Below, one piece after another: positions 15,001 through 18,000 of a stretch of 32,115 nucleotides of DNA. The position numbers are program-made. Every line of letters starts with the position of its first letter. Within the stretch, counting starts at the first letter, position 1. Origin of the DNA: Candidatus Woesearchaeota archaeon. Lineage in GTDB: Archaea; Nanobdellota; Nanobdellia; Pacearchaeales; GW2011-AR1. The stretch lies in contig CAYIIQ010000003.1 in NCBI GenBank assembly GCA_964363545.1, positions 1 through 32,115 on the forward strand. Reading direction: 5' to 3'.

Positions 15001-18000
15001 CATCTAATCTTAAGATAAAAGAAAATGGAAATCAAGAGTTCAATGTAACATGGCATGACATAGATAACCAAAATTCTGATGTAGTAGCAAGGTGGTATAT
15101 AAATGGAAATCTTGAAACTCTTGGTAATAATTTTGATTTTATATCTACAGGAGAAGGAAATTACGAAATTAAAATTGTTTTGTCTGACCTTCAAGATGAA
15201 ACTGAAAAAATCTGGCAATTAAAAGCCAGCAAAATTCCAATAGCTGAAACATATAATGGCTCAACAACAGACTTTTCTTTGTTAAGCGAATCTGATTTAG
15301 CAGCTATCAACCTAATCTTAGAAAAAACCGGCCTTGGAAAAATAGAATTTTTAGTTCCAGTTGATTTAAAAGATGTTGTAGATTTTGACAGATTCTCTGA
15401 TATTAAAAAAGCATTAATATCTCTTGACACAAATATTTTTACAGTTTTAAAGAGTTTGCCTGCAAGACTAACTTTCTACGGATTAACTCAAAATAAAACG
15501 CCGACAATATACTACAACACTGCATTTACCTTAGATTACAATAAGATAACAAGTGTATGTCCTGCAAATATTTGTACTAACATTAGTTACAATAATCTAA
15601 CCGGAACTCTAACATTTATTACAACAGGATTTTCAAGTTTCAGGGCAGGAGATGTTTTAAGTTGTTCAGATCAACAAGGAACAATCTGTCAAGATAATCA
15701 GATATGCTCTGGACAGTATTTAGACACTATTGAAAATAATTGTTGTAAAGGAAGTTGTGTTGAAGCTCCTCCAGAATTTAAAGATGTTGATAAAAGATGT
15801 GGGAATTTAAGCAATCAGATTGAATTAGAAATAAAATCTCCAGATGAAAATGAAGAGTTTGAGGTTGAGGAAGATATTGATTTAACTGTTAAAATATCAA
15901 ATAACGCTAACGACGACATGGACTTTGATGTAACTTATTACCTTTACGATTTGACAGAAGATGAAGTGGTGAAAGAAGAAGACACAAGCTTAGAAGTTGA
16001 TGATGGTGAAAGTGAAAAATTCGATGCAGATGTTATGATAGAGAAAGACTTAGACGATGAAAATAAATATGCTGTATTTGTTTTTGTTGAAACAGAAGAT
16101 GAAGATTTTTGTAATGAAGGCTTCGTAAAAATTGATATAGAGAGAGAGAAACACGACATAACTGTTGAAAAGCTGGAAATACAGCCGAGAACAGCTTTAT
16201 GTGGGGATTATGTTGATGTTATATTCGATCTTATTAATACTGGAAAAAACGACGAAGATGTGAAAATCGCTGTAGAAAATAAAGAGCTTGGCGTTAAAGA
16301 ACATAGTGATGAGTTTGAGCTTGAACAATTTGGTGACGATGATGAAACTACAGAAGTTCTTACTCTACAGATTCCAGAAAATGCCGCTCCTGGCAACTAT
16401 ACTCTAACAACTAAAGTTTTATATAATGGAAAAGAAGAAAGCCAAAACGAAATTATTTATGTTGAAGACTGCAAAAAAGAAGCTAGTGAAAAAACAGATC
16501 TTGAAGAAATTAAACTTGACGGAAAAAAAGAAGAACAGAGATTTAAGAGATTCACGCTTGATCAGAATACAAAATATTTTCTTTTAGTAACAGGTATAAT
16601 GTGGATTATAATATTGTTATTAATTGTTAGAAGAAATAGATTGTATGGGTAAGCTTATTTAGTTAAATAAGATTTTAACAAATATGAAAAGAGTTTTGTT
16701 GGTATTCTTAATAATCTTGACTTTTCACAACAAACCCACCACCATATTGTTCCGAAAAGTGTGTTGGTGAACCACAATAAGAATCCTCTGAATCAGTAAA
16801 GCCATCTCCATCATTGTCAATTCCATCAGAACATTCTGGAAGATGTGTAGGTTGTGGAGTTGCAACTGGAATTGGAGTTGATGTATTACTTACAATATCT
16901 TGTAAATTAATATCTTGTAAATTTGGAGAGCATGATGCGCTAAAACTTATAAATACTAAACTCCCCATACCAAATTTTCTAACAAATCTGGGTATTCTGT
17001 ACATGTTTTTATATTGCATTTTAACATACACTTTTCACATTCCTTATTTTTAAATCTTTCTATTGTAATTATTACAAAGTAAGTATAACAAACCTTAAAA
17101 ACCTATCTTGACTAGTTTAAATGCAGACTAGGCTAGCGGGTTAGTCCTCCGCTGTTTGCAAATGGACTTATGGCAAGCTGCAAGAGAGTAAGTGAGACAA
17201 GAGCTATTAAGTCTTTATGCTGATGCTGATGTCTTGTCCTGTTCGATCTTGCTCTTGCGAAATGGGTCAGACCTTGATCGGAGCAGCCCTAAACAGGAGT
17301 TAGGGTGCTTATAGGGTAGCAAGGCGGAGTTAGTATAAAGGTAGCTTAATAGTTCTTATCAAGCAAGCTCTCGAGTCTGCACTTGGGATTTGCAAGATAA
17401 GTCTCTGAAAAGTGATTTTAATTATAAATAATCGCCGTTAGTAGACCCGATGACTGAAAGGAGAATCAATCTCCAAGAGTTAGAAAAGGATTTTGGAGGG
17501 TAATTTTTTAATTTTTCTTTTTATCTTTTTCCTTTTCCCTATAAAAAAATCTATTCGCGGTTTTCTTATCGATTAATTTTTTGCTATCGGCTTTTTTCAG
17601 CAAAATATTTGCGATACATCCTTCAAAATAACAAATCTCAATTTCCTTACCTTTTTTCTTGATTCTATTTAGAAGGTCGGCAAAATCGCCGTCTCCAGAG
17701 ATAAAAATGGCTTTGTCAAACTTATTGTTATAACAATCTTCTATCATATCTAACGCCAGCGCAATATCATCACCTTTTATTGTATGATATTCTTCTCCCA
17801 AAATATTAAGGCGTGACTTTCTTGTGCATAAAGTGACTTTACATTTTGGAATTTTACGCAGCCTTTCAAAAAATTCACTTTGTTTCTTCCATATTTTTTC
17901 ATTAATTTTCTTTTTGACTAATGCATTGTAATAATTTATTCTAACTAATCTTTCTTTTCCAATCAGATATTTTACATAATTCTCAAAATCAAATTTTGTG

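What a model noticed while it worked through the whole genome (the two positions that open the first line are those of the whole stretch)
17123..17380. SRP RNA without helix 6 whose universal GNRA tetraloop is replaced by a conserved UUGAUC hexaloop
The 258-nt SRP RNA runs from helix 5 straight into helix 8, with no helix 6 and no SRP19 gene, and helix 8 is capped by UUGAUC instead of the GRRA tetraloop. The hexaloop is conserved across 14 genera with compensatory changes in its closing stem, so it is likely a selected alternative way to dock FtsY. This would be a natural SRP that has dropped the tetraloop thought to be general.
Evidence so far: Loop at C3:17267-17286, CAGA-CC-UUGAUC-GG-AGCAG. 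Pattern found in 15 of 61 genomes, 14 of 42 genera, 0 with the reversed control; variants UC/GA and CU/AG keep both closing pairs. The proximal helix 8 stem covaries in four genomes: CTCTTG/CAGGAG, CTCCTGT/ATAGGAG, CTTTTAC/GTAAAAG, CCATAAT/ATTATGG, leaving no room for helix 6. G011 keeps GGAA. SRP19 in 0 of 41 genomes, 3 of 4 archaeal controls, and no Pfam row here. PMC2905702 (passages, call 197) gives a GRRA loop for all archaeal helix 8.
(Added by a program. Inside this text positions count along the whole contig: contig position 1 is position 1 of the stretch shown here. "Call 12" and the like, gene names such as g00115 and contig names such as C1 are that model's own, and its searches are not shown. 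The text may have been shortened before it was handed on; [...] marks where a part breaks off. The agent that wrote the report below was given it as the finding of a first reader that could run no searches.)

Follow-up and report, generated by a model that had tools for sequence, protein, structure and literature searches.

The report
Trimmed archaeal SRP RNA, known loop
This is the gene for the RNA core of the protein-targeting particle (SRP) of a tiny DPANN archaeon; it lacks the arm that normally holds protein SRP19, and its odd tip loop is a UGAU variant already described in bacteria that likely mimics the usual loop rather than docking the receptor in a new way.

Summary
17121-17382 is a real, single-copy SRP RNA gene; helix 5 runs into helix 8 with no helix 6, and the tip is CC-UUGAUC-GG (17272-17281). 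The headline interpretation does not hold. The tip has the same 10 bases as a canonical 3-bp stem plus GNRA: it is a UGAU loop closed by a U·C mismatch. URRC/URRU loops are in print for bacteria (PMC4091067), Rfam's Bacteroidales consensus carries this exact hexaloop, and 36 bacterial loci of 120 sampled have the U·C-closed form. In the order, 67 of 109 RNAs have UGAN and 42 GGAA, switching at least 6 times. FtsY keeps the Lys399 equivalent in 26 of 26 UGAN and 33 of 33 GGAA genomes. Best reading: a GNRA-mimicking loop docking FtsY the usual way (inferred, untested). Loss of helix 6 and SRP19 is real but class-wide (no credible SRP19 in 301 genomes), shared with Aenigmatarchaeota, and independent of loop type. 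I did not find that loss, or archaeal UGAY loops, in the papers searched; this scan noted the helix-6 loss about ten times on other DNA.

The parts
17121..17382 (+). SRP RNA gene, about 260 nt: Alu domain, long helix 5, helix 8, no helix 6
   Evidence: RF01857 89.7 bits; RF01854 62 bits at 17123-17380; fold z -3.69
17123..17180 (+). Alu (small) domain: 5' strand of the terminal helix and helices 3 and 4 (end approximate)
   Evidence: alignment to RF01854 and RF01857; covariation not counted for this part
17231..17249 (+). Helix 5, distal 5' strand; pairs with 17303-17325
   Evidence: 17 pairs, 13 with two-sided changes across 80 RNAs
17250..17250 (+). Single unpaired base at the place where helix 6 branches in canonical archaeal RNAs
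   Evidence: 40 model positions deleted against RF01857; alignment A1
17251..17257 (+). Helix 8 proximal stem, 5' strand; pairs with 17294-17300
   Evidence: 7 of 7 pairs with two-sided changes, 89.8% of cells paired
17258..17263 (+). Asymmetric loop of helix 8, long strand (short strand 17290-17293)
   Evidence: alignment A1 and Rfam alignments
17268..17271 (+). Symmetric loop 5' strand CAGA (SRP54 M-domain site); partner strand AGCA at 17282-17285
   Evidence: sequence; Rfam alignment
17272..17281 (+). Apical element CC-U-UGAU-C-GG: two C-G pairs, U17274·C17279 mismatch, UGAU core at 17275-17278 in the register of GGAA
   Evidence: same 10-base length as the GGAA tips of relatives
17094..17099 (+). 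TATA-like box CTTAAA, 24-29 bases upstream of the RNA (weak; AT-rich background, no shuffled control)
   Evidence: sequence; a TATA-like hexamer in the first 45 bases of 104 of 110 fetched stretches

Best explanation
This is the genome's SRP RNA, without helix 6 and with no SRP19 gene found, so the particle likely consists of RNA plus SRP54 alone, and its UGAU loop with a U·C closing mismatch likely folds into a GNRA-like turn that would tether FtsY through the same lysine as the usual GGAA loop. Shown: gene, architecture, loop distribution, intact archaeal-type SRP54 and FtsY, invariant Lys399 equivalent. From established knowledge: SRP54's M domain binds the symmetric and asymmetric loops of helix 8; in E. 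coli the tip tethers FtsY Lys399 electrostatically; UNAC loops mimic the GNRA backbone. Inferred: the fold of UGAU, the use of the tether in these archaea, and that without helix 6 no SRP19 clamp is needed. GGAA and UGAY act as two interchangeable states of one element and have been exchanged repeatedly in bacteria and archaea.
For: Same length and register as GGAA tips. Two discrete states and almost no intermediates: 67 UGAN and 42 GGAA of 109; inner pair standard in 42 of 42 GGAA and in 0 of 67 UGAN. At least 6 (best tree 10) state changes on a quick FtsY tree of 58 genomes. Lys399 equivalent in 26 of 26 UGAN, 33 of 33 GGAA, and 10 of 10 other UGAY carriers (one of the 10, G489, is unpublished). 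No FtsY column separates the classes: best split 23 of 26 against 11 of 34. URRC/URRU known in bacteria and the Lys399 tether (PMC4091067). UNAC mimics the GNRA backbone (PMC5311481 passages); the CUAACC hexaloop with a C·C pair is a solved GNRA-like fold (PMC12550061 passages). Helix 6 and SRP19 go together: SRP19 in 4 of 4 helix-6-bearing genomes and 0 of 4 without. SRP19 is dispensable in Haloferax and archaeal RNA binds SRP54 without it (PMC2905702 passages).
Against: No structure or kinetics for a UGAU tip was found. UGAU is not strictly UNAC (U·U instead of U·C at positions 1 and 4). A kept lysine does not prove the tether: mammalian SR keeps the matching K537 but no longer uses it (PMC6781444 passages), and in plastids loop and lysine are not strictly correlated. 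The stem is far less variable under UGAN (54 of 67 are exactly CCUUGAUCGG) than under GGAA, which could mean a more specific contact, or only shared descent. SRP54 was not compared across loop types. G000 is 86% complete. Four longer relatives (G349, G305, G326, G267) carry 35-80 extra bases at or near the helix-6 position that I could not classify.
Confidence: 0.68

Rival explanations
1. The tip does not tether FtsY in these archaea (as in mammals); UGAY and GGAA are simply two stable caps for helix 8 and the lysine is kept for another reason.
For: Mammalian tetraloop and K537 have little effect; free switching between states; loop diversity in plastids.
Against: Only two states in 109 RNAs, none UUCG-like; the same two states recur across many bacterial phyla, where the tether is shown for E. 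coli; lysine invariant in 59 of 59.
Confidence: 0.2
2. One reading: UUGAUC is a distinct hexaloop selected as an alternative, sequence-specific docking site for FtsY or SRP54.
For: Near-invariant 10-mer in family f1; inner pair never Watson-Crick in 67; UGAU never with a C-G or U-G closure in 59 sampled loci.
Against: No covarying FtsY residue; same loop in unrelated bacteria with an ordinary FtsY helix; reversion to GGAA inside single genera g3 and g20.
Confidence: 0.08
3. The RNA gene, or its S domain, was taken from a bacterium with a large SRP RNA (no helix 6, URRY loop).
For: Passes the bacterial large-SRP cut-off and misses the archaeal one; identical 10-mer in 3 bacterial loci.
Against: Higher score to the archaeal model (89.7 against 62 bits); helix-6-less RNAs scoring up to 175-181 bits as archaeal occur through the class and in Aenigmatarchaeota; SRP54 and FtsY are closest to archaeal structures. 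No RNA tree was built.
Confidence: 0.04

Closest known systems
Bacterial SRP RNAs with URRC / URRU apical loops (PMC4091067, citing Rosenblad et al. 2009; Rfam RF04183 Bacteroidales_small_SRP consensus)
   Same: UGAY core in the tetraloop register, U·C closure, same 10-base tip; FtsY lysine kept
   Different: Here in an archaeal RNA with an Alu domain; near-fixed in one family and switching with GGAA
Canonical archaeal SRP RNA, Rfam RF01857 (Methanocaldococcus, Archaeoglobus; PMC2905702)
   Same: Alu domain, long helix 5, helix 8 loops, archaeal SRP54 and FtsY; best-scoring model
   Different: No helix 6, no SRP19 found, no GRRA loop, so the helix 6 to helix 8 adenosine clamp cannot form; about 260 nt against 309-313 nt in helix-6-bearing controls
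Bacterial large SRP RNA, Rfam RF01854
   Same: Alu domain plus unbranched S domain; one protein partner; passes its cut-off (62 bits)
   Different: Sequence is more archaeal; true members score 156-207 bits; likeness is likely convergent or ancestral
UNAC / UMAC GNRA-like loops, including the phi21 boxB CUAACC hexaloop (PMC5311481, PMC12550061)
   Same: U-N-A-Y core, pyrimidine-pyrimidine flanking pair, formal hexaloop
   Different: Fourth base is U in 61 of 67 RNAs here (60 in f1, 1 in f7); fold not determined

Membership tests
SRP RNA clan CL00003 | Helix 8 with symmetric and asymmetric loops | tested here: met
SRP RNA clan CL00003 | SRP54 and FtsY encoded, with RNA-binding M-domain motifs | tested here: met
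   open frames of 457 and 425 aa on contig C4
SRP RNA clan CL00003 | Expressed and bound by SRP54 in this organism | not testable with these tools
   only relatives' contigs from RNA libraries were found
Canonical archaeal SRP (RF01857) | Score above 96.5 bits | tested here: not met
   89.7 bits
Canonical archaeal SRP (RF01857) | Helix 6 with GNAR loop | tested here: not met
Canonical archaeal SRP (RF01857) | SRP19 gene | tested here: not met
   not found in G000 (86% complete) or credibly in 301 class genomes; model rings in 4 of 4 archaeal controls
Canonical archaeal SRP (RF01857) | GRRA loop on helix 8 | tested here: not met
   UGAU
Canonical archaeal SRP (RF01857) | Alu domain | tested here: met
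   model alignment from position 1; covariation not counted
URRC/URRU-loop SRP RNAs | U-R-R-Y at the four tetraloop positions of helix 8 | tested here: met
   UGAU at 17275-17278; class defined in PMC4091067
Bacterial large SRP RNA (RF01854) | Score above 60 bits, Alu domain, no helix 6 | tested here: met
   62 bits
Bacterial large SRP RNA (RF01854) | Bacterial host and best-scoring model | tested here: not met
   archaeal genes; archaeal model scores higher
GNRA-like (UNAC) loop fold | U-turn backbone with a 1-4 non-canonical pair | not testable with these tools
   analogy only

The most novel reading that the evidence does not exclude
The helix-6-less, SRP19-less particle of these DPANN archaea is the ancestral archaeal state, not a loss: helix 6 and SRP19 were added after DPANN branched off, so these cells keep the intermediate between bacterial large SRP and the archaeal-eukaryotic particle, still using a bacterial-style RNA tether that can be built from either GGAA or a mismatch-closed UGAY loop.
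Probability: 0.12. Interest if true: 0.75.

Novelty: new variant of a known kind. Interest (0 to 1): 0.36.

Why it matters
[quoted passage not shown] Hundreds of DPANN genomes break the first two statements, and several archaeal groups break the third. The trimmed RNAs often fall under the archaeal Rfam cut-off or are labelled bacterial. Close relatives that differ in loop type (genera g3, g20) give natural pairs for testing whether archaea use the RNA-FtsY tether and whether UGAY mimics GNRA. The loop itself is a known bacterial variant, so the surprise is moderate.

Tried and rejected
Covarying FtsY residue: none separates loop types; the best columns follow family membership and kin are not independent. 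Link between loop type and helix-6 loss: rejected both ways. Weak SRP19 hits: 12 of 151 at E 0.01-0.16 and 3 of 301 at 16-18 bits inside 175-600 aa frames, against 54-75 bits for true genes; taken as noise, not inspected one by one. Long RNAs as helix-6 carriers: of 13 hits over 300 nt, 6 have the extra bases at the helix-8 tip, 3 in the Alu domain or mostly there, 1 on the 3' side, and G349 (also tip), G305, G326, G267 stay unclassified. RNA evidence: no run holds more than 6% of the words; contigs laid from 4 RNA-library runs are relatives', cover only 17119-17356 and list no change inside 17273-17280, but do not show transcription in this organism. The careful tree did not finish; the quick tree is used. 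Papers: searches for UGAC, URRC, DPANN with SRP19, Pacearchaeota, and Bacteroides 4.5S gave no report of archaeal UGAY loops or of DPANN helix-6 loss. PMC7203096 mentions SRP19 and helix 6 beyond the held text, so it may bear on novelty. The original description of the UGAC loop (Regalia et al. 2002, recalled) was not held. No supplements were read. No complex prediction was sent: the tool does not score RNA partners.

Full report
Host. The window lies in a 666 kb, 31% GC assembly, 86% complete, with an archaeal threonyl-tRNA synthetase editing domain and an archaeal type IV pilin. Named records carrying near-identical RNAs are titled Pacearchaeota, Woesearchaeota or Nanoarchaeota, so the host is a DPANN archaeon, most likely Pacearchaeales (inferred).

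Observation. Rfam gives RF01854 at 17123-17380, 62 bits, and RF01857 at 17121-17382, 89.7 bits, with the 40 positions of helix 6 deleted. The region folds better than 200 of 200 shuffles. The motif CAGA-CC-UUGAUC-GG-AGCAG is at 17268-17286 and occurs once in the assembly. RF01854 matched 131 of 151 genomes of the order; I fetched 110 of these RNAs and parsed the tip of 109 (G015 has a 4-bp stem with GGAA and was not parsed there). On 80 of them, one per genus and loop type, the unbranched helix 5 to helix 8 structure has 95% of cells paired and 26 of 31 pairs with two-sided changes; slid controls reach at most 54% and a covariation of 0.154 against 0.533. The structure was derived from this alignment, so the controls flatter it, but the Rfam deletion is independent.

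What the loop is. Between the two strands of the symmetric loop there are 10 bases in both loop types. Of 109 RNAs, 67 have UGAN at the four central positions (65 of 73 in the window's family, one in f7, one in f8) and 42 have GGAA. With GGAA the inner pair is standard in 42 of 42; with UGAN it is U·C 62, U·U 2, C·C 2, G·A 1. So the hexaloop is a UGAY loop with a mismatched closing pair. Exactly UUGAUC in 58 of 67; 51 of 76 genera have UGAN, 27 GGAA, two both.

The loop is not confined to this lineage. A scan of GTDB genomes for a UGAY tip estimated about 5200 stretches and returned 120; 36 of 39 loci tested are SRP RNAs by Rfam. They span Planctomycetota, Clostridia, Acholeplasmataceae and phytoplasmas, Staphylococcus, Lactococcus, sphingomonads, Bacteroidales, cyanobacteria, and among archaea Methanomassiliicoccales, other Thermoplasmata, Aenigmatarchaeota and Nanohalobium. 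U·C closure is seen in 50 of 120, 36 of them with bacterial labels; 12 bacterial loci have UUGAUC itself, 3 the identical 10-mer (one locus, L169, is from unpublished G489). UGAU did not occur with a C-G or U-G closure in 59 such loci. The Rfam consensus of RF04183 (Bacteroidales small SRP) contains gc-uuGAuc-gc. PMC2905702 (passages) lists only GRRA loops for archaea, and my searches found no report of archaeal UGAY loops.

Receptor side. FtsY and SRP54 lie one ORF apart on contig C4 and are closest to archaeal structures. Alignment to E. coli FtsY puts Lys336 and Arg339 at Lys399 and Arg402. In 59 FtsY sequences with that helix (60 extracted, G012 truncated) the lysine is present in 26 of 26 UGAN and 33 of 33 GGAA genomes, and in 10 of 10 further UGAY carriers from bacteria and Methanomassiliicoccales. 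No column separates the classes. A quick IQ-TREE tree of 58 sequences (G012 and G050 left out; sample enriched for switchers) needs 10 changes of loop state, 6 forced by starred branches; the label is still clustered (shuffled mean 19). Direction is not shown, but GGAA tips nested in f1 have different stems each time, as expected of separate reversions.

Helix 6 and SRP19. The 30 best class RNAs outside the order all have 25-31 bases or a by-eye equivalent between the helix 5 anchor and helix 8 (my anchor failed or mis-set in 10 of 30), with 27 GGAA, 2 GGGA and 1 UGAC; full-length class hits are 260-279 nt except two, against 309-313 nt for helix-6-bearing controls. In the phylum of an Aenigmatarchaeota genome 79 of 81 have the RNA, 68 of them under 300 nt. 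SRP19 by Pfam: none over cut-off in 151 order genomes, none at E 0.01 in 150 class and 81 Aenigmatarchaeota genomes; that model misses Sulfolobus. NF001973 rings in 4 of 4 archaeal controls and gives only three 16-18 bit hits in 301 class genomes. An unfiltered search of G000 found nothing below E 0.27. SRP19 is present in 4 of 4 genomes whose RNA has helix 6 and in 0 of 4 without. Against a clean picture: four long RNAs have unclassified extra bases near the helix-6 position. I found no paper on this loss, but PMC7203096's mentions were not readable, and this scan's earlier AI notes report it about ten times; I had reached the reading before looking.

Mechanism. Established: the M domain binds the internal loops of helix 8 and the E. 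coli tip tethers FtsY Lys399, speeding assembly about 100-fold. UNAC loops mimic the GNRA backbone (PMC5311481 passages) and a Y-UNAC-C hexaloop with a C·C pair has a solved GNRA-like fold (PMC12550061 passages). Inferred: UGAU with U·C closure presents a similar phosphate surface to the same lysine, so the two loops are interchangeable; and with no helix 6 there is nothing for SRP19 to clamp, in line with its dispensability in Haloferax. Caveat: mammals keep both loop and lysine without using the tether (PMC6781444 passages), so conservation is not proof.

Verdict. Real feature; loop is a known bacterial variant newly seen in archaea; trimmed architecture is a lineage-wide variant of archaeal SRP. 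New variant of a known kind, interest 0.36.

Noticed in passing
L127, L136, L141, L168, L207, L210, L221, L229, L231: Methanomassiliicoccales and other Thermoplasmata keep helix 6 with a GGAG loop (and SRP19 in the 4 genomes tested) but have UGAC on helix 8, so the fourth-position adenosine of the supposedly universal helix 6 to helix 8 clamp is missing.
   Followed up: partly
L366 (G203), L280 (G349), L368 (G336), L369 (G304), L372 (G313), L374 (G296): SRP RNA genes with 30-40 extra bases inside the helix-8 tip, resembling tRNA-type introns; earlier notes of this scan describe such cases.
   Followed up: partly
L280 (G349), L373 (G305), L371 (G326), L367 (G267): Extra 35-80 bases at or near the helix-6 position without a clear GNAR loop; no SRP19 found. 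Could be introns, new helices or helix-6 remnants.
   Followed up: partly
L189 (G484): Record titled Methanosarcinales has a 270-nt RNA without helix 6, the same CCUUGAUCGG tip and no SRP19 in 1.1 Mb; either a labelling problem or an independent case.
   Followed up: partly
families f4, f5, f8 (for example L013, L007, L004): The last pair of the symmetric loop varies: CAGU opposite GGCA or CGCA instead of CAGG opposite AGCA, mostly in GGAA RNAs (24 of 42 have U there, 1 of 67 UGAN).
   Followed up: no
G025:C2, G007:C1, G019:C6, G013:C1: In family f8 the SRP RNA gene lies next to or within about 2 kb of ftsY.
   Followed up: no
family f30: No SRP RNA match in 0 of 16 genomes of one family of the class; loss or strong divergence.
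   Followed up: no
L082 (G015): Helix-8 tip with a 4-bp stem and GGAA, two bases longer than all other relatives.
   Followed up: no
window 19265-28135: Archaeal type IV pilus cluster: several pilin-like ORFs, an ATPase (T2SSE) and two T2SSF proteins.
   Followed up: no
window 16708-17031 (-) and 17508-18104 (-): The RNA is flanked by a 107-aa ORF without Pfam match and by a NYN-domain nuclease gene on the opposite strand.
   Followed up: no
G000, several contigs: Many tRNA calls carry introns, some at unusual positions.
   Followed up: no
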